Part shown: one piece after another, positions 1 to 40,831 of the stretch
Numbering within the stretch: position 1 is the stretch's first letter
How the letters are laid out: each line of letters opens with the position of its first letter
Virus record (IMG/VR): IMGVR_UViG_3300044518_000009
Location: 1-41,304 of that record
Direction: 5' to 3' (one strand)
DNA: 41,304 nt
From: a virus
Lineage: Duplodnaviria > Caudoviricetes
Notes under the pieces: generated by a model
Database searches by the model: none
Told to the model about the DNA's origin: nothing
What the model saw: only the letters and a program-made list of their open reading frames with translations
Program-made: the position numbers and the translations under genes

Positions 1-148
1 ACCTGGGCGGGGTGTCGCTCAAGCTTTCCCCGTACTGGCAGTACAAGTGGTGGGTGGTGCTGACGGAGCTGTGGCTGGATCGACCGGCGCCGGAAAAGGC
101 GTAGAGAAGCCCTGAGCGCCCCGTAGGCGCCCGTTCAACCCCCGGTCG
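1..148. repeat. Terminal direct repeat (circular assembly overlap), copy 1
   Basis: 1-148 matches 41157-41304 except G127 vs A41283; it cuts through the 40904..41260 ORF. Confidence 0.95.
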
Positions 149-192
149 GCCAAACTGGTCGGCCGGGGCCCGTAGAGGGAAGGAGAGATACT

Positions 193-2808: not shown

Positions 2809-2830
2809 CTTCACCCAAATTTGGGTGAAG
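2809..2830. repeat. 22-bp palindrome CTTCACCCAAATTTGGGTGAAG copy 1
   Basis: Exact match, 4 bp after the exonuclease stop, upstream of the endolysin. Confidence 0.97.
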
Positions 2831-2859
2831 GTGCACATCACACCTTGGGAGTACTGCAT

Positions 2860-3696
2860 ATGGGTATCTATGGTCAGGACTGGTCTAGCTATCAGGATTC
2901 CGCCCCCGACACCAGCGGCCTCAGCTTCGCGTTCATCAAGGTGACTGAGGGGCTGTCGTATACCAACCCCGAGTGGACCAGCCAGCGGGACACCGCGCGT
3001 GGTGCCGGTCTCGTGGTCGGCTACTACCACTATCCGCACATGGTCAACGACCCGCAGGCGGAGGCGGATCACTTCCTGTCGGTGGCTCAGCCTCAGCCCG
3101 GCGAGGTGATCGTTCTCGACTGGGAGGGTTACGACAGCGCCAACTCTGGTGTGTCGCATGCCGATCAGCTCGCCTACAAGGAAGCGTTCCTGCGCTACGT
3201 CAAGGGCAAGATGCCGAACAACCCGGTCGGCATGTACTGCAACGTCGACTACTGGCGGAACGTCGACACCACCGGCTATTTCGCCGACTTCCTGTGGATT
3301 GCTACCGCTGGGCGCTCCGCTGGCGACCCCGGCATTTCGGCGAACTGGCTGTTCCACCAGTACAGCGACAGCCCGGTTGATTCCGACTACTGCAACCTCG
3401 ACAGCACGGATGCACTGCGAAACTGGGTGCAGTCGTTCGCGGCGCCGTCCGACGCTGGTCCGGCGTGGCCCGGTGAGTACCTGAGCGTACGGACCCCGAT
3501 GCTCCACGACGACACCACGCGAACGTGGCAGCAGCGAATGCACGATCGGGGCTGGAACATTGCCGTCGACGGTTGGTACGGCAGCGCAAGTGCCGCTGTC
3601 TGCAAGGCATTTCAGACTGAGAAGAGTCTGACGGCGGATGGTGTGGTCGGCCCGGCTACGTGGTCGGCGGCGTTCCGTGCGGACAACGTGACCTGA
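2860..3696 (+). CDS. Endolysin: GH25 muramidase plus C-terminal peptidoglycan-binding domain
   Basis: GQDWSSYQ, FAFIKVTEG, GYYHY, LDWE, WLFHQYS; C-terminal VDGWYG..FQ..L.ADGVVGPATW; ATG 2860 after GGGAG. Confidence 0.9.
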   Translation: MGIYGQDWSSYQDSAPDTSGLSFAFIKVTEGLSYTNPEWTSQRDTARGAGLVVGYYHYPHMVNDPQAEADHFLSVAQPQPGEVIVLDWEGYDSANSGVSHADQLAYKEAFLRYVKGKMPNNPVGMYCNVDYWRNVDTTGYFADFLWIATAGRSAGDPGISANWLFHQYSDSPVDSDYCNLDSTDALRNWVQSFAAPSDAGPAWPGEYLSVRTPMLHDDTTRTWQQRMHDRGWNIAVDGWYGSASAAVCKAFQTEKSLTADGVVGPATWSAAFRADNVT

Positions 3697-18649: not shown

Positions 18650-18721
18650 GGTCCCTTGGTGTAATGGCAAGCACCCCTCCTTGACCGGGAGGTAGTGCCG
18701 GTTCGAGTCCGGCAGGGATCC
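18650..18721 (+). tRNA. tRNA-like gene, anticodon GAC (Val?) on a Gln-like body, atypical loop
   Basis: Acceptor GGTCCCT/AGGGATC; D GTGT/GCAC; anticodon stem CCTCC/GGAGG with loop TTGACCG; T GCCGG-TTCGAGT-CCGGC; no encoded CCA. Confidence 0.75.
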
Positions 18722-18779
18722 CGCGCGCAGCAGCAAGGTACCGAGGCATTTGCCGGGGTCTGTATCGAAAGCCTTGCAT

Positions 18780-18852
18780 GGCCGCTTAGCCCAATGGCAG
18801 AGGCGCAGCGCTTAGAACGCTGAAGTTCCCGGTTCGAGTCCGGGAGTGGCTA
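18780..18852 (+). tRNA. tRNA-Leu(TAG), short variable loop
   Basis: Acceptor GGCCGCT/AGTGGCT plus A73; anticodon arm CAGCG-CTTAGAA-CGCTG; T CCCGG-TTCGAGT-CCGGG. Confidence 0.9.
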
Positions 18853-32442: not shown

Positions 32443-32453
32443 TACGTGGGGAC

Positions 32454-32475
32454 CTTCACCCAAATTTGGGTGAAG
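32454..32475. repeat. 22-bp palindrome copy 9
   Basis: Exact match, 11 bp after the tape measure stop. Confidence 0.97.
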
Positions 32476-32499
32476 GTCTGCCCGTGCTTGGGAGCACTT

Positions 32500-35339
32500 G
32501 TGGCAATCAACCCGAATTGGCCTGTCATTGAGCATGCTTGGGGCCCGATGTGGAACGCCAACGGCGGCGATATCCCCCTAGATCGCTACGTTGAGGTCAC
32601 TGGCCGGGCAATCGGCACTGTCACCACAGGACGTGGTCGACAGTACGAGCTTGACCAGGTGCAGGCCGGAACGCTATCGGCGGTGTTGTCTAACACTGAC
32701 GGTGCGCTTGATCCCATGAATGCCTCGGGTCCGTGGGCGGGCAATATACGGCCGTACCAGCCCTTCCGGATCCGGGCGCAGTACCCGCCAACTCCAAACC
32801 TCCTGACTCAGGTTCAGGCGACCGGCGGGGATCTGGGAGGCATTCCGACCGGCACGATCCCGAGCGGCAATGGTGGGATTGACGTCTTCACTAACACCGA
32901 TCCCGCCGGTGGTTCCATCGTTGCTAGCGCGTCCGCATTTCGGGGGACGAACGTCTTCCAGTTCGCTGTACCCAGCGGAATCGCGGCGGCGGCCCTCATC
33001 TGCTGGACCTATCAGAATGCCGTAACCCCCGGTGCCACGTATTCCGTGCAAATGCAGGTTCGGAATGTAGTAGCGGGCACCTCAATTCCGGTACAGCTGT
33101 ACATCGGGCAGTACAACGCGTCGGGTGGCTTTGTATCGAACACGCCCGGCTCGGTTGTCACGTTGACCGGAAGCCCCACGGCAGCATGGTCCACCGTAAC
33201 GGTCACTGCCACGGCGCCGCAGAACACGTACGGAATGTACGTCGGACTCGTCGCAGCGTCCGCCGTAAGCACCACCTGCACGGTCCAGGTGGACGGGTGG
33301 CAGCTGGAGAAGGCGGCGACCCCGTCGACGTTCACCGTTCCCGGCATTACCTACCCGCTGTACGCCGGATTCGTGGAGCGCTGGCCGTCAAAGTGGGAAA
33401 AGGATGGCACCTACGGGGTTGTCAGCCCGACGGCCGTGGACGCGTTCGCTCTTCTGAGTCAGCGGATCCTCAAGGACCCCCTGACGCAGGAACTCTACTC
33501 GCGTTACCCGACCTACATTTTCCCGCTGTCTGATCCGCAGAACTCGCAAGGATTTGCGGACGCAACCGGCAATTTCCCGGCCGCCACGATCGGTGTCTCA
33601 AAATACGGCGCGGGATCCCTGACGTCGGGCAATCAGATCACCTCCGCATCCGCTGGCGGCACATTTACGGGGAGTACTGGCAGCGTCGTCACGCTCGCAA
33701 ATCAGTACCCGGGCACCAACTTGGTTCCCGAGAACGCATCGTTTATCAGCCTCAGCAACGCAGGGATTACGGGCCCGTCTAATCCCGCGTGGTGGACGCG
33801 AATGCTTGCGTTCCGATATACCGGCCCCACGCCCACAGCTGCCGCTGTCATGTGGTCGGCTATGGATGGCCAGCGGGCAAACAACAACCCGTCAGGCTCA
33901 CAAATTCAGTTCGGAATTAGCACAAGCGGCAACGTCTACGCGAACGTCGGCGGCCCGTCTGGAACCTACCAGCAAGTCGTCAATACGTCAGTGAACGTCT
34001 GTGACGGCAATTGGCACCTGATGCTTGTCTCGTGGGGCCCTTCCATCAACTATTTCGGGCTCGCTGTCGACAACGCGCCTATCGCGTACAGTACGGCGTC
34101 GGCGGCAAACAGCCCAACGGGAATCATCTCGGATTGCGTCGGTGCGTTTGTTGATGCGACTGTCGGTAACGGCACCACCTACGGATTTCAGGGCGATATT
34201 GCTTTTGCCGCCGAGTTCAACGCGTTCCTGTATCCGGCGGATGTCACGGCCATCTACAGCGCGTGGAAGAACAGCTTCGCTGGTGATAGCACGGACCAGC
34301 GGTACGCGCGGATCCTGAAATGGGCTGGCTACACAGGTGTGAGCGATATTGGCACTGGCAGACCCGCAGCATGGGCCCGGCAGTCACCGGCGGACAGGAT
34401 GCCCTGTCGGCGCTTGCCGCTGTGGTCGAGACTGAGAACGGCGTGCACTACGTGAGTACTTCCGGCACGGTCACGTTCCGGGGTCGCGGGTACCGCTATA
34501 ACAACAACACGCCAATCTACGTTTTCGGCGAAAACGGCAGCGCGGGGGAGTGGCCGTACGAGGAAGTTGAGCTTGATTACGACTCAACTCACCTTGCTAA
34601 TCAGGTGACAGTCACGCAGGGTCCGACAAGTGCGCAGTTTATCGGCGTCGACCTCACGTCTCAGGCGAATTACTTTCCTCGAACGATGTCACGCACGGTG
34701 AATTCCACGAACGCGCTGGAATGCCAGGACGCCGCGAACTATTTGGTCAGCCGATACCACAAGCCGCTTACCCGAGTGACCACGCTCAAGCTCCATCCGT
34801 CGGCATACCCGGCACTGTGGCCCGTGTGCCTGTCGCTGGAACTCAACATGCGTGTGCGCATCATGCGGCGGCCGTTCGGTGCTCCGCCAATCCAGATTGA
34901 TGCGTACATCGAGAACATCCAGTGGGACATTGACGACCAGAACGAAGCGGTCGTCACGCTCCAATGCTCGCCCGCCGACTTGACTCCTTACGGCGTTTTT
35001 GCCTCGTTCCACACCACGCTGTACGGCGCTGCCAGCGCGGGAGCAACGACGCTACAGCTCAAGCCTGGCAGCGACAGCACCAACCCCCTTGCCGCGCAGA
35101 TCAGTTCGGGGCAACCGCTGATCCTAGACCCCGGCACCGCGAACGCCGAGACAGTCACCGTGCTGGCGGTCGGCTCCACTACGTCGGGGTGGACGAACGG
35201 CACGATCACGCTGACGGCGGCAACGGTCAACTCACACCCGGTAGGGGCGGTGGTCTGTGAGCCACTTCCGTCCGGTGTCACCAACCCGGCCGCATATGAC
35301 GTGAGCGCGCGGTTCGACAGTAGCGCTTTCTCCTACTAG
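32500..35339 (+). CDS. Large minor tail protein with carbohydrate-binding-like and LamG/ConA-like regions; frame broken near 34359
   Basis: RGRQYELD, L.NTDG.LDP, DGWQLE, DGNWH motifs; ORFs 32446..34455 and 34320..35339 join as DIGTG-QTRSMGPA if one C is inserted. Confidence 0.75.
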
Positions 35340-37715: not shown

Positions 37716-37740
37716 GCCCCCGCTTCGGCGGGGGCTTTCG
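37716..37740 (+). terminator. Intrinsic terminator (end of late operon)
   Basis: GCCCCCGC-TTCG-GCGGGGGC followed by TTTCG. Confidence 0.8.
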
Positions 37741-37753
37741 TCGTTTCGGGGGC

Positions 37754-37783
37754 TTGCGCTGATATCCCGTCAACCCCTAGTGT
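37754..37783 (+). promoter_or_regulatory. Putative HrdB-type promoter with operator-like motif in the spacer
   Basis: TTGCGC-N18-TAGTGT; CTGATATCCCGTCAA at 37759-37773. Confidence 0.5.
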
Positions 37784-37821: not shown

Positions 37822-38715
37822 GTGCGCACCTACACCATCCGGTACAACCGGGCCACGAACCACATCGACGGCATCGGCGCCCGCACGACCAGCGGTGGCA
37901 ATGACATGGGCGACCACGTGTCCTACTACGCGCTGAAGGCGTGCGGATCGCTGACCCGTTCCGGCTCGAACATGGCCGTCAGCAAGTCGTTCGAGTCGCT
38001 GGCGGAGGCTCTGGAGTACGCCCGGAAGCTCGGCGGCCGGAAGCTCTGCAAGACGTGCGAAAAGGCTGCGGAGGCTCTGCTGGCGGCTGAAGCCGAGGCG
38101 GCGGAGGTTGAGGAGGTTGAGGAGGTTGAGGAGGTTGAGGAGGTTGACGCGGTGTACGGCCCGATCTGGGACGCCGAGCTGGCGGTTCGGGGCGAGAGGG
38201 CAAGCGCAACGTTTGGTGACCTTGAGACCCTGGCGCGTGCTCCGCGAAACCTGAAAGCGGCGCAGGAGAAGCTCTACGCGCTGATTGAGTCCCTTACGTT
38301 GGATGAGCTTCGCGAGTATGGCGCGTACAGGAGGGAAATTCGCGAAGCGCACAAGGCTGCGGAGGCTCAGTTGGCGGCGGAGACGGAGGAGGTTGCGCAC
38401 GCTTCGTGCCCGACGCACCCGTGGGCGAGCGGCCGCATGGGTGACGAGAAGTACCACAGCGACGCACGCTGCATCACGGACCCAGAGGGTAGCAAGGCAC
38501 CGCAGTTCGTTCGCCGCGAAGATGGCCCGCGCAGTAACGAGGGGTGGCTCTACGACGCCGCCGGAACGCGCTACTACTTCCACTACTTCAGCTTCCGCCC
38601 GGTTCAGGTATTCGCGGGGTATGACGGCCCGTACGGGCGCATTGGCGAGGGTCTGAACGGAAAGCAGGTTGCGGAGATGACGATTATCGAGTTGCAGGAA
38701 ATCCCCGCGAGCTAG
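37822..38715 (+). CDS. Hypothetical protein with acidic EVE tandem repeat
   Basis: GTG after AGGGGAGAG; CKTC motif; (GGAGGTTGA)x5. Confidence 0.8.
   Translation: MRTYTIRYNRATNHIDGIGARTTSGGNDMGDHVSYYALKACGSLTRSGSNMAVSKSFESLAEALEYARKLGGRKLCKTCEKAAEALLAAEAEAAEVEEVEEVEEVEEVDAVYGPIWDAELAVRGERASATFGDLETLARAPRNLKAAQEKLYALIESLTLDELREYGAYRREIREAHKAAEAQLAAETEEVAHASCPTHPWASGRMGDEKYHSDARCITDPEGSKAPQFVRREDGPRSNEGWLYDAAGTRYYFHYFSFRPVQVFAGYDGPYGRIGEGLNGKQVAEMTIIELQEIPAS
38103..38147 (+). repeat. 9-bp tandem repeat x5
   Basis: GGAGGTTGA repeated 5 times in frame. Confidence 0.95.
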
Positions 38716-38716
38716 C

Positions 38717-38779
38717 GTCGAAACGGGCTCTGGCCCGTCCGTCCGGGATTCGCCACCCGGCGCTGACGAGACAGGCGAA
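38717..38779 (+). ncRNA. Type II hammerhead ribozyme with pseudoknot
   Basis: GTC-GAAA-C GGGC(TCTG)GCCC G-TC | CG(T)CCGGG(ATTCGCCA)CCCGGCG-CTGACGA-GAC; loop TTCGCC pairs with downstream GGCGAA. Confidence 0.85.
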
Positions 38780-38790
38780 AGGGGAGAGCA

Positions 38791-38961
38791 ATGAAGGTAC
38801 GTATTGTGATGACGATCGACGTCGACCCGGACGAGTGGGTGGCGGTCTACGGAGGCAGGCGGGATGGGGTGCGCGAGGATGTCAAAGATTACGCGTTCCA
38901 CAACGTGGTGGAGTCAGCAGGCATCAAAGAGTCGGGCGCTACCGTCACGCTGGTGAAGTAG
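38791..38961 (+). CDS. Small hypothetical protein (56 aa, below the ORF track cutoff)
   Basis: ATG after AGGGGAGAG; MKVRIVMTIDVDPDEWVAVYG...VREDVKDY. Confidence 0.75.
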   Translation: MKVRIVMTIDVDPDEWVAVYGGRRDGVREDVKDYAFHNVVESAGIKESGATVTLVK

Positions 38962-39236
38962 TGGCCGCCAACAGGCTCCACGTATCCCGCGTGCTTCGCG
39001 CCGCTGGCTTCCGGCCACGGCATGGCCAGCGCATGAACGGCCCCGGCGGCTATCGGTCGGCACAGGACGGCGTCCGGGTTCGGGTAAGCCACTGGTTTGG
39101 GCCTGAGGCTGATTACATGCCCGACGACGAACGGGATGCTCTCAGGGCCGAATTCCTCGAAGACTACAGGCTGGCACTCCTGCGCGAAGGGTACTTGGTG
39201 GAGCTGAGCCACGGTGCACTGTATGTGACGGTGTAG
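38961..39236 (+). CDS. Hypothetical protein
   Basis: GTG overlapping the previous TAG; 91 aa. Confidence 0.7.
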   Translation: MAANRLHVSRVLRAAGFRPRHGQRMNGPGGYRSAQDGVRVRVSHWFGPEADYMPDDERDALRAEFLEDYRLALLREGYLVELSHGALYVTV

Positions 39237-39238
39237 GG

Positions 39239-39260
39239 CTTCACCCAAATTTGGGTGAAG
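39239..39260. repeat. 22-bp palindrome copy 11
   Basis: Exact match, upstream of the putative repressor promoter. Confidence 0.97.
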
Positions 39261-39285: not shown

Positions 39286-39315
39286 TTGTGCTGACGGGTC
39301 GTCAGGGCGTAGAGT
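39286..39315 (+). promoter_or_regulatory. Putative HrdB-type promoter of the repressor gene with CTGAC-N5-GTCAG in the spacer
   Basis: TTGTGC-N18-TAGAGT; CTGACGGGTCGTCAG at 39291-39305. Confidence 0.55.
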
Positions 39316-39364: not shown

Positions 39365-40831
39365 ATGGTTGCAAATGTGGTCAGTGTCCGGGGTGGCAAG
39401 GTGCACATGGGAACTGACGGCATGGGCAAGCACGCATTCCCGCTCTGCCGGACCGGCGGTATGACCAACAGTGGGACGAAGTACCGTGAAACCAGTGATG
39501 ACGTGACGTGCCGTGTTTGCGCCACGTTCATCGATGGCAACGCGTCCAACAATGGAGAGAAGGAAGAAATGGCTGCGAAGGAAGACAAGGCCGCGAAGGA
39601 AGCGAAGTGGGCCGAACTCGGTGAGAAGATCACCGCGTGCATCGAGCGCATCAAGCCCTTGGCGATCGAAGGCAACACGGATGCCGCTCAGGCGATCTTC
39701 AAGGATGAGGTAGAGATGCTCATCCCGCAGATCACCGGCGAAGGGGCGATGGCGGAGCGCAAGAGGTGGCGCGCGCTGGCCGAGGCGGCGTTGGAGGCGA
39801 AGCCGGAGATTACGCCGAGTAGCGAGGTGGCTACTGCCCCGCAGGCTGCCGAAGTGGCATCGCTGGAAACCCGCGACTACCACGACATTGAAGGCGTTAG
39901 CGAGATGGTCGCAAACGCTACCGCCACGCTGGCAGAGGGTATCGAGCACCAGCGCGCGGCCACGTCCCTCGCAAAGCAACTGGCAGCTTCCACTCTGACC
40001 ATCGGCACCCTGATGACCAACCCGGAGGGGAACCCCGACCTTCGGACCCAAAGCCAGGGTTTCCGCGACATGATGACTCAGATCGTGGCTGACGCGCTGG
40101 TGCAGGCAGGCTACAAGGAGGGTGACAAGGACACCGCCCGCGCTGCTAAGAAGCTGGGCAAGTCCATCGCCTACCAGCGCGGCAACCTGCGCGTGAAGTA
40201 CATCCGGACGCTCGCCGACACCCCGGAAGAGCGGGAGAAGTTCGGCCGGGTACTGGAAGCCTTCCCGAACCACAGCGTTGAAGACGCAATCTTCGAGTAC
40301 TACAACCTTGACAGTGCGTCGGAGCTGGAGAAGACGAAGGAGCGCGAGGATGCAAGGCGCGCGCTTGCCTCGGCATCGCTGGCTGAGCTGACGGCCGCTA
40401 TCGCCGAGCCCGACATGCCCGCCGACTACGACGAGGATCACGACGAGGAAGAGGAGGACCAGGAAGACGCACAGAAGGGCGGCGGCGAACCCATCGTGAC
40501 CCCGGGTGAGAAGACACCCCGGAAGAGCCTGTTTGAGCGCCTGTCGGAGGCGGCCGTCAGCGTCGACGACAAGTTCACGGACTTCGAGGACAAGGTCGCT
40601 AAGCAGCTTGACCCGAAGAAGCTCAACAAGGTAGCGGACGAAGACGTGGCCGCCCTCGAAGCCGAGATTGCCACACTCAAGGGGAAGGTGGGCGCGCTGG
40701 GCATGACCATGGTCGCCATTACGCGGGCCCTTGAAAAGGCCGAAAAGGAACTCAAGGCGCGGAAGGTTGTCGTTGGCTCCGCCGAAGCGAGCGCGAGTGG
40801 CAGCGAGGAGGGCGACGACGCCGACGAGTAG
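39365..40831 (+). CDS. Putative immunity repressor (Streptomyces phage type), possible second start at 39569
   Basis: DY..IEGV.E.V, EG...., N..G.PD, KKL..SI..Q....R..Y.R.L pattern recalled from Streptomyces phage repressors; location between the late and early modules. Confidence 0.6.
   Translation: MVANVVSVRGGKVHMGTDGMGKHAFPLCRTGGMTNSGTKYRETSDDVTCRVCATFIDGNASNNGEKEEMAAKEDKAAKEAKWAELGEKITACIERIKPLAIEGNTDAAQAIFKDEVEMLIPQITGEGAMAERKRWRALAEAALEAKPEITPSSEVATAPQAAEVASLETRDYHDIEGVSEMVANATATLAEGIEHQRAATSLAKQLAASTLTIGTLMTNPEGNPDLRTQSQGFRDMMTQIVADALVQAGYKEGDKDTARAAKKLGKSIAYQRGNLRVKYIRTLADTPEEREKFGRVLEAFPNHSVEDAIFEYYNLDSASELEKTKEREDARRALASASLAELTAAIAEPDMPADYDEDHDEEEEDQEDAQKGGGEPIVTPGEKTPRKSLFERLSEAAVSVDDKFTDFEDKVAKQLDPKKLNKVADEDVAALEAEIATLKGKVGALGMTMVAITRALEKAEKELKARKVVVGSAEASASGSEEGDDADE

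What the first reader, a model, noticed from the sequence alone, without database searches (positions are those of the whole stretch)
38717..38779. Complete type II hammerhead ribozyme with pseudoknot between two phage genes
Seen: stem II GTC(38717-19)/GAC(38770-72); GAAA (38720-23); stem III AC-GGGC-TCTG-GCCC-GT; cleavage triplet GTC, cutting after C38739; stem I CG(T)CCGGG/CCCGGCG; core CTGACGA (38763-69); and a 6-bp pseudoknot between loop TTCGCC (38749-54) and GGCGAA (38774-79). It starts 1 nt after a stop codon and ends at the RBS of the 56-aa gene. Established: CUGANGA, GAAA and NUH form the hammerhead core, and pseudoknotted type II forms are known from bacteria and phages, with unclear roles. 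Inference: self-cleavage splits the operon and gives the downstream mRNA a structured 5'-OH end. Together with the repeated hairpins at 141, 816 and 40838, this suggests RNA-level partitioning of the accessory gene region around the repressor.
Basis: partly seen in the sequence, partly recalled or inferred. Interest (0 to 1): 0.85.

Follow-up and report, generated by a model that had tools for sequence, protein, structure and literature searches.

The report
Lone hammerhead ribozyme in phiC31-like phage
A well-formed type II hammerhead ribozyme motif fills the gap between two accessory genes of a phiC31-like Streptomyces phage and likely cuts their shared message in two; this arrangement has been known in phages since 2011, and the only unusual point is that it is a lone copy in a phage group where close relatives lack one.

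Summary
Confirmed. 38716-38780 matches Rfam Hammerhead_II above its cut-off (41.9 vs 37 bits). The window is a whole phiC31-like phage genome. The ribozyme is its only copy. It sits between a stop codon and a Shine-Dalgarno in a small accessory operon ahead of repressor c.

It likely self-cleaves after C38739, leaving a hairpin on each new end; cleavage is untested. This stop-ribozyme-RBS layout is the family norm (134 of 163 phage examples have a stop within 10 nt), and Perreault 2011 proposed the processing role.

None of 50 phiC31-like records carries one over the cut-off, and it is not tied to either flanking gene, so it looks like a sporadically acquired spacer module. The claimed partitioning system with the hairpins at 141, 816 and 40838 is not supported.

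This scan has already reported such ribozymes, mostly arrays, on other Streptomyces phage DNA. New member of a known kind.

The parts
37716..37738 (+). Terminator-like hairpin (8 bp, UUCG loop, short U-run) after the dNMP kinase gene; likely 5' boundary of the operon
   Evidence: Read from the sequence; look-alikes in 23 other loci of phiC31-like phages. Not listed by the generic scan.
37754..37783 (+). Host-type promoter candidate TTGCGC-18-TAGTGT, with no copy of the genome's 22-bp palindrome in or beside it
   Evidence: One of two + strand matches of my pattern in the genome. The same-slot promoter of phiBT1 and RemusLoopin has the palindrome inside its spacer. Consensus match only; the generic scan found none.
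37822..38715 (+). Upstream ORF, 297 aa, function unknown; mosaic, with an N-terminal ~80-aa domain also found fused to repressor c proteins
   Evidence: 55 homologues, mostly covering 26-38% of it, several bearing PF25746; stop TAG 38713-15
38717..38779 (+). Type II hammerhead ribozyme with 6-bp pseudoknot; predicted cleavage after C38739
   Evidence: Rfam RF02276 41.9 bits; pairs; covariation
38717..38739 (+). Part that would stay on the upstream product: stem II 5' strand, GAAA, stem III hairpin, GUC with 2',3'-cyclic phosphate
   Evidence: Topology; fold of the 5' product tail keeps the hairpin; end chemistry from PMC6765202
38740..38779 (+). Part that would lead the downstream product: 5'-OH, stem I, core CUGACGA, stem II 3' strand, pseudoknot strand
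   Evidence: Topology. Perreault 2011 reports that the pseudoknot forms without the other strand in three constructs.
38780..38786 (+). Shine-Dalgarno of the 56-aa gene, abutting the pseudoknot strand
   Evidence: Duplex -8.2 kcal/mol with a recalled anti-SD motif
38791..38961 (+). Downstream ORF, 56 aa, small actinophage protein family of unknown function
   Evidence: 92 library proteins at E<=0.001, itself included; Gordonia and Mycobacterium phage homologues; weak phrog_2869 match
38961..39236 (+). Possible third ORF, 91 aa, start overlapping the previous stop; no homologue found, so uncertain
   Evidence: No match
39239..39260 (.). 22-bp perfect palindrome, 1 of 11 identical copies; likely repressor operator
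   Evidence: phiC31 and phiBT1 carry 15-16 copies of their own palindrome
39365..40831 (+). Repressor c homologue, 488 aa, with its own promoter candidate TTGTGC-18-TAGAGT at 39286-39315
   Evidence: PF25746 E 2e-33; tblastn to Rowa and phiBT1 repressors; promoter

Best explanation
The stretch 38717-38779 is a canonical pseudoknotted type II hammerhead motif that fills the gap between a stop codon and the next ribosome-binding site, and it likely cuts the accessory-operon message after C38739 into an upstream and a downstream mRNA. Shown: sequence, pairing potential, family membership, position, single copy. Inferred: transcription from the promoter candidate at 37754; folding once the pseudoknot strand is made; Mg2+-dependent cleavage. 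In type II topology both products keep a hairpin at the new end. The upstream mRNA would end in stem III with a 2',3'-cyclic phosphate. The downstream mRNA would begin with a 5'-OH already paired in stem I and the pseudoknot, directly ahead of its SD. The likely effect is two separately stabilised and translated messages, made without a host nuclease. In this phage it is probably a portable spacer module picked up with accessory DNA, not a core part of the phiC31 programme.
For: Rfam hit above cut-off. All pairs present. On 50 pseudoknot-type examples, 17 of 20 pairs show two-sided changes, 5 of 6 in the pseudoknot; 0 of 500 shuffles reached the covariation score and slid registers fall to 31-42% paired from 86% (rows were chosen for having a pseudoknot, so this leans). 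Unselected for pseudoknot: 59 of 66 short-stem-II examples pair >=5 bp with their own tail, against a mean of 28.8 and a maximum of 39 with swapped tails. A metagenome relative (L241:2504) has the same bulged stem I with four compensatory changes, two in stem I and two in the pseudoknot (read by eye). Position is the family norm: 134 of 163 have a stop 0-10 nt before GAAA (null 4.7% of 8150 random positions, 8.6% of 4419 other GAAA); 108 of 163 have an SD-led start within 35 nt; 23 of 24 multi-copy loci are on one strand. Perreault 2011: 14 of 18 consensus hammerheads were active in vitro, tandem prophage copies cleaved 2-kb transcripts, one set also in E. coli.
Against: No cleavage or expression data. 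A competing inactive register is predicted to be 3.8 kcal/mol more stable without the pseudoknot, though a register of >=4 bp exists in 105 of 163 examples. 0 of 50 phiC31-like records have one over the cut-off, and none of 21 loci of the upstream gene's domain or 7 loci of the 56-aa gene has one adjacent, so nothing shows selection for it at this site. In Gram-positive bacteria a 5'-OH product can be degraded by RNase J (glmS), so the effect could be destabilising. The 163 examples come from one stem-III search pattern plus neighbours, and relatedness was not corrected.
Confidence: 0.62

Rival explanations
1. Neutral passenger: an intact, possibly active ribozyme that came in with accessory DNA from a phage with ribozyme arrays and has no fitness effect here.
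For: Single copy; absent from 50 related records and from phiC31, phiBT1, Rowa and RemusLoopin; unlinked to homologues of both flanking genes. The slot between kinase and repressor holds different genes in phiBT1, Rowa and RemusLoopin and none in phiC31. The best sequence matches lie in unrelated viral contigs, at 79-83%.
Against: Every core base and all 6 pseudoknot pairs are intact, though it differs about 20% from the nearest relatives. It fills the 75-nt gap with 1 nt to spare upstream and abuts the SD, although both neighbours differ from those in other carriers.
Confidence: 0.2
3. Translation-gated or conditional ribozyme: a ribosome terminating at the stop 4 nt before GAAA, or initiating over the pseudoknot strand, decides between the active fold and the competing register, so cutting reports on translation.
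For: Median 1 nt between stop and stem II (n=157); a 5-bp competing register here; Perreault 2011 speculates on regulated phage hammerheads.
Against: Tight spacing is expected from compact phage gaps. The competing register is largely a by-product of the consensus. A test for an evolved upstream anti-SD failed: own upstream was stronger in only 35 of 106, and 5.5% of random stretches pair as well with this SD.
Confidence: 0.07
4. Chance match or inactive look-alike.
For: MFE z-score +0.67; 4 of 18 consensus candidates were inactive in Perreault 2011.
Against: Above the Rfam cut-off; 0 strict hits in 100 simulations; exact intergenic fit; relatives with compensatory changes.
Confidence: 0.01

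Closest known systems
Hammerhead ribozyme type II, Rfam RF02276; Perreault et al. 2011 (PMC3088659; passages, Discussion part 1 of 2, supplements searched for four terms)
   Same: Core, open stem II, loop I to 3'-tail pseudoknot, phage intergenic position, proposed processing of long phage transcripts.
   Different: Single copy rather than a cluster; in a phiC31-like Streptomyces phage (no 'Streptomyces' in the main text or held supplements); bulged stem I, seen in 4 of 163.
Hammerhead arrays of R4-like (Arquatrovirinae) Streptomyces phages: Celia, VieEnRose, R4 and others
   Same: Same host genus and same stop-ribozyme-SD layout; the ribozyme is 81% identical to Celia's first copy. Celia has 10 descriptor hits plus one seen by eye, R4 has 3 in 15 kb, and 49 Streptomyces phage records match one Celia copy.
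   Different: Those are arrays with a GGC/GCC stem II; this is one copy with a GUC/GAC stem II, and its best matches are unrelated viral contigs.
glmS ribozyme (PMC6765202, PMC3997798, PMC11780869; passages)
   Same: Self-cleavage in a bacterial mRNA leaving a 5'-OH before a coding region.
   Different: Different fold, ligand-dependent, lies in a 5' UTR and triggers decay; no ligand is known or suggested here.
Theta (HDV-like) ribozymes of gut phages (PMC10879173; search listing only)
   Same: Self-cleaving RNA in a dsDNA phage.
   Different: Different fold and tRNA-associated; the two tRNAs here lie 20 kb away.
T7 early mRNA processing by RNase III, and the engineered RiboJ insulator (both recalled, no call)
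   Same: A polycistronic phage message is cut between genes; a ribozyme gives a uniform hairpin-led 5' end before an RBS.
   Different: No host enzyme would be needed; natural and type II.

Membership tests
Hammerhead type II (RF02276) | Core CUGANGA, GAAA and NUH cleavage triplet | tested here: met
   CUGACGA 38763-69, GAAA 38720-23, GUC 38737-39
Hammerhead type II (RF02276) | Stems I and III closed by loops, stem II open, with the G10.1-C11.1 pair | tested here: met
   Pairs listed; G38770-C38719
Hammerhead type II (RF02276) | Pseudoknot of 4 or more bp between loop I and the 3' tail | tested here: met
   6 bp; covaries in relatives
Hammerhead type II (RF02276) | Score at or above the Rfam gathering threshold | tested here: met
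   41.9 vs 37 bits
Hammerhead type II (RF02276) | Active fold favoured over alternatives | tested here: inconclusive
   Competing register -24.2 vs -20.4 kcal/mol without pseudoknot or tertiary terms; pseudoknot duplex -7.9
Hammerhead type II (RF02276) | Mg2+-dependent self-cleavage at NUH | not testable with these tools
Clustered phage hammerhead arrays (Perreault 2011; R4-like phages) | Several copies flanking single genes or short blocks | tested here: not met
   One copy in the whole genome
Clustered phage hammerhead arrays (Perreault 2011; R4-like phages) | Sense-strand position between a stop codon and the next RBS | tested here: met
   Stop 38713-15, SD 38780-86, ATG 38791
Hammerhead types I and III | Order CUGANGA, closed stem II, GAAA | tested here: not met
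   No such candidate in the window
Theta / HDV-like phage ribozymes | HDV fold next to a tRNA | tested here: not met
   No Rfam hit of that kind; tRNAs at 18650-18852

The most novel reading that the evidence does not exclude
A phiC31-like temperate phage has captured a self-cleaving RNA into an operator-free operon that reads through into repressor c. Cutting, gated by the ribosome that terminates 4 nt upstream, makes a long-lived hairpin-capped message for the 56-aa gene and the repressor, so a ribozyme would bias the lysis-lysogeny decision.
Probability: 0.06. Interest if true: 0.75.

Novelty: new member of a known kind. Interest (0 to 1): 0.3.

Why it matters
The purpose of self-cleaving ribozymes in phages was still undefined in a 2019 review (PMC6765202), and my searches found no paper on hammerheads in Streptomyces phages or actinobacteriophages (the library is open-licence only). 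A single-copy case is the simplest possible knockout. Its three-gene cassette could be tested in a reporter or in phiC31-type vectors, since phiC31 and phiBT1 lack one. But the phage itself is known only from sequence, the flanking genes have no function, and cultured R4-like phages with arrays are the better model. It adds an example, not a new principle.

Tried and rejected
(1) More ribozymes in the genome: Rfam to E=10 and my descriptor found none.
(2) Hairpins at 141, 816 and 40838 as processing elements: no Rfam match. 141 and 816 resemble terminator-like hairpins of relatives; 40838 matched nothing among my loci.
(3) Link to the flanking genes: none adjacent in 21 loci of the upstream domain. 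Six of these have hammerheads 2.7-3.7 kb downstream (descriptor on all 21; Rfam on 19 of 21 found none). None in 7 loci of the 56-aa gene. Searches found no relatives; one search gave two weak 20-residue matches without a hammerhead. A profile search for the 56-aa family could not run, so linkage was not tested on the wider family.
(4) Prevalence in phiC31-like phages: 50 of the 97 loci were searched as whole records, 36 of them >=90% complete. 0 were over the cut-off; one 18-bit match (L227) fails the descriptor. The descriptor on 80 loci, 1.59 Mb, gave one loose hit with a 1-bp stem II, which I discounted.
(5) Evolved anti-SD upstream of the cut: not general and not significant here. SD accessibility, cut versus uncut, was inconclusive without pseudoknot modelling.
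(6) Aminoglycoside inhibition of Streptomyces phages acting through ribozymes (lead from PMC9239200): the most sensitive phage, Alderaan, has no descriptor hit; dropped.
(7) A promoter inside the 3' end of the upstream ORF (TTGCAG-15-TAGCGT, by eye): spacer too short; dropped.
(8) Expression: no RNA holder listed. Run X2 covers only 157 nt of the promoter region.
(9) The genome contigs pattern scan gave 5 loci, none from Streptomyces.
(10) Literature on the phiC31 operator: one search gave nothing usable, so the name CIR and its operator role are recalled.

Full report
Observation. The sequence at 38717-38779 is as described. Rfam's Hammerhead_II model matches 38716-38780 end to end at 41.9 bits, above the curators' 37, E 2.3e-5. 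All named pairs are there: stem II of 3 bp, stem III of 5 bp plus A-U, stem I of 2+5 bp with a bulged U, and a 6-bp pseudoknot. My own descriptor found one site in the genome. In 100 order-3 Markov simulations it gave 5 loose and 0 strict hits. Against activity: the pseudoknot-free minimum-energy fold is not the hammerhead (z +0.67), and a 5-bp register that pairs the 5' strand with the catalytic core is predicted at -24.2 against -20.4 kcal/mol. That model ignores the pseudoknot (duplex -7.9), and a register of 4 bp or more exists in 105 of 163 natural examples, so it is a caveat, not a defect peculiar to this copy.

Setting. The window is the whole record, with a 148-nt terminal overlap. Gene content and order follow phiC31 and phiBT1: primase 61-66% identical to Rowa, RemusLoopin, TG1, phiBT1 and phiC31, an integrase, tRNAs, head and tail genes, dNMP kinase, then repressor c (PF25746). 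The ribozyme lies in the variable slot between kinase and repressor. There phiC31 has no gene, and phiBT1, Rowa and RemusLoopin each have one unrelated-looking gene. Here the slot holds a terminator-like hairpin, a promoter candidate at 37754, a 297-aa ORF, the ribozyme, a 56-aa ORF, a possible 91-aa ORF, a 22-bp palindrome and the repressor's own promoter candidate. The palindrome occurs 11 times; phiC31 and phiBT1 have 15-16 copies of a different palindrome, recalled as the repressor-binding CIR sites. In phiBT1 and RemusLoopin the same-slot promoter has the palindrome in its spacer. Here it has none within 4 mismatches, so the operon may escape direct repression. That is inference from consensus matches; the generic promoter scan found nothing.

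Relatives of the RNA. A blastn search hit only the ribozyme part, in Celiavirus phages at 81%. Those phages carry arrays: 5 Rfam matches each in 5.5 kb of Celia and VieEnRose, 5 of the 10 above the cut-off; 10 descriptor hits in Celia's right arm, in gaps between genes; 3 in 15 kb of R4. One Celia copy matches 49 Streptomyces phage records. With the annotated loci and the window, these yielded 181 hits in 124 of 126 sources, 163 distinct (L001 left out as overlapping L003). Of the 163, 134 have an ORF-closing stop 0-10 nt before GAAA, against 4.7% of random positions and 8.6% of other GAAA sites. 108 have an SD-led start within 35 nt, and 90 have both. The window's layout is therefore the family norm. 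The set is biased by my stem-III pattern and is not corrected for kinship. The pseudoknot is real at family level: 59 of 66 short-stem-II copies pair with their own tail, against 28.8 on average with swapped tails. On 50 selected copies, 5 of 6 pseudoknot pairs and all 6 stem I pairs show two-sided changes. A metagenome copy shares the bulged stem I with four compensatory changes.

What is unusual. 0 of 50 phiC31-like records searched whole have a match over the cut-off, and there is no credible descriptor hit in 80 loci including phiC31, phiBT1, Rowa and RemusLoopin. Homologues of the flanking genes do not carry it: 0 of 21 for the upstream domain and 0 of 7 for the 56-aa gene, which is a real family. 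So the ribozyme behaves as a portable spacer that this phage acquired sporadically. This lowers any claim that it is central to the phage's programme.

Mechanism. Shown: structure potential, family, position, copy number. Established (PMC6765202): cleavage leaves a 2',3'-cyclic phosphate and a 5'-OH. Inferred: after transcription through 38779 the RNA folds and cuts after C38739. Because type II has both stems I and III closed, each product keeps a hairpin at its new end. The downstream one starts fully paired and runs straight into the SD at 38780-86. RppH prefers unpaired 5' ends and RNase J a monophosphate (PMC3997798), so I favour two separately stabilised messages (0.62). Rivals: neutral passenger (0.20); down-regulation through RNase J as for glmS (0.10); ribosome-gated cutting (0.07; the anti-SD version failed its test); chance (0.01).

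The hairpins at about 140 and 815 are near-copies of each other and resemble hairpins in 11 other loci of related phages; relatives of the 1715 copy end in a T-run. The 40838 hairpin follows the repressor stop and has no relative among my loci. None is a known ribozyme. They read as terminator-like, and nothing ties them to the hammerhead.

Comparison with what is known. Perreault et al. 2011 (PMC3088659; passages; Discussion part 1 of 2; 11 held supplements searched for four taxon terms, none found) defined type II hammerheads and the tail pseudoknot. They described clusters flanking single genes in prophages, proposed processing into gene-length mRNAs, and showed cleavage of such transcripts. 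PMC6765202 (passages) says the purpose remains to be defined. Searches showed no paper on Streptomyces phage hammerheads; most subscription papers are not covered, and sequence datasets that list accessions only could hold such examples. Earlier notes of this scan report the same element many times in other Streptomyces phages, mostly as arrays; none was held for this genome. They are leads, not evidence.

Verdict. Observation confirmed; interpretation partly supported; new member of a known kind; interest 0.3. The boldest reading not excluded, a ribozyme that shapes a read-through message into the repressor, gets 0.06.

Noticed in passing
window 2809, 5962, 11061, 13044, 18865, 21794, 23927, 27218, 32454, 37123, 39239: Eleven identical copies of a 22-bp perfect palindrome, likely the repressor operator. 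None of the other loci held at that point has it within 3 mismatches, which suggests a distinct immunity type. Some copies lie inside called ORF starts.
   Followed up: partly
window 37822-38065: The ~80-aa N-terminal domain of the upstream ORF has two Cys-containing motifs. In other phages it is fused to the N-terminus of repressor c (P0004, P0005) or to unrelated C-termini, so it is a mobile domain of unknown function.
   Followed up: partly
window 38078-38164: 9-nt tandem repeat encoding an EEV run, a linker between modules of the mosaic 297-aa ORF.
   Followed up: no
window 37754-37783: Promoter candidate without the palindrome, whereas the same-slot promoter of phiBT1 and RemusLoopin has theirs in the spacer; the cassette may be expressed in lysogens.
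   Followed up: partly
window 2821-3696: The endolysin gene sits in the early region right after the exonuclease, not after the tail genes as in phiC31 and phiBT1.
   Followed up: no
window 32446-35339: One PHROG family (phrog_5313) is split over two overlapping ORFs in different frames (32446-34455 and 34320-35339): a frameshift, real or from assembly.
   Followed up: no
window 18650-18721: Second tRNA-like gene has a lower score (48.6 bits) and an anticodon loop that does not look standard in the Rfam alignment.
   Followed up: no
L001:1045-1065 and 1458-1475 (Celia): A 17-nt stretch containing the -10 box of the arm's first promoter candidate is repeated just before the first hammerhead; the acetyltransferase gene may have been inserted between promoter and ribozyme (by eye).
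   Followed up: no
L003:18441-18549 (Celia): An eleventh hammerhead with a long, branched stem III that Rfam and my descriptor both missed (by eye).
   Followed up: partly
L131, L138, L140, L143, L145, L146: Type II hammerheads with 4-bp stem II, no clear pseudoknot, often CUGAGGA cores and long stem III; found by descriptor, below the Rfam cut-off where scanned. Across the set, a pseudoknot of >=5 bp is in 59 of 66 short-stem-II but only 25 of 97 long-stem-II copies, suggesting two subtypes.
   Followed up: partly
window 140-168, 815-842, 1715-1750: Related hairpins; the first two lack the T-run and lie just ahead of an SD.
   Followed up: partly
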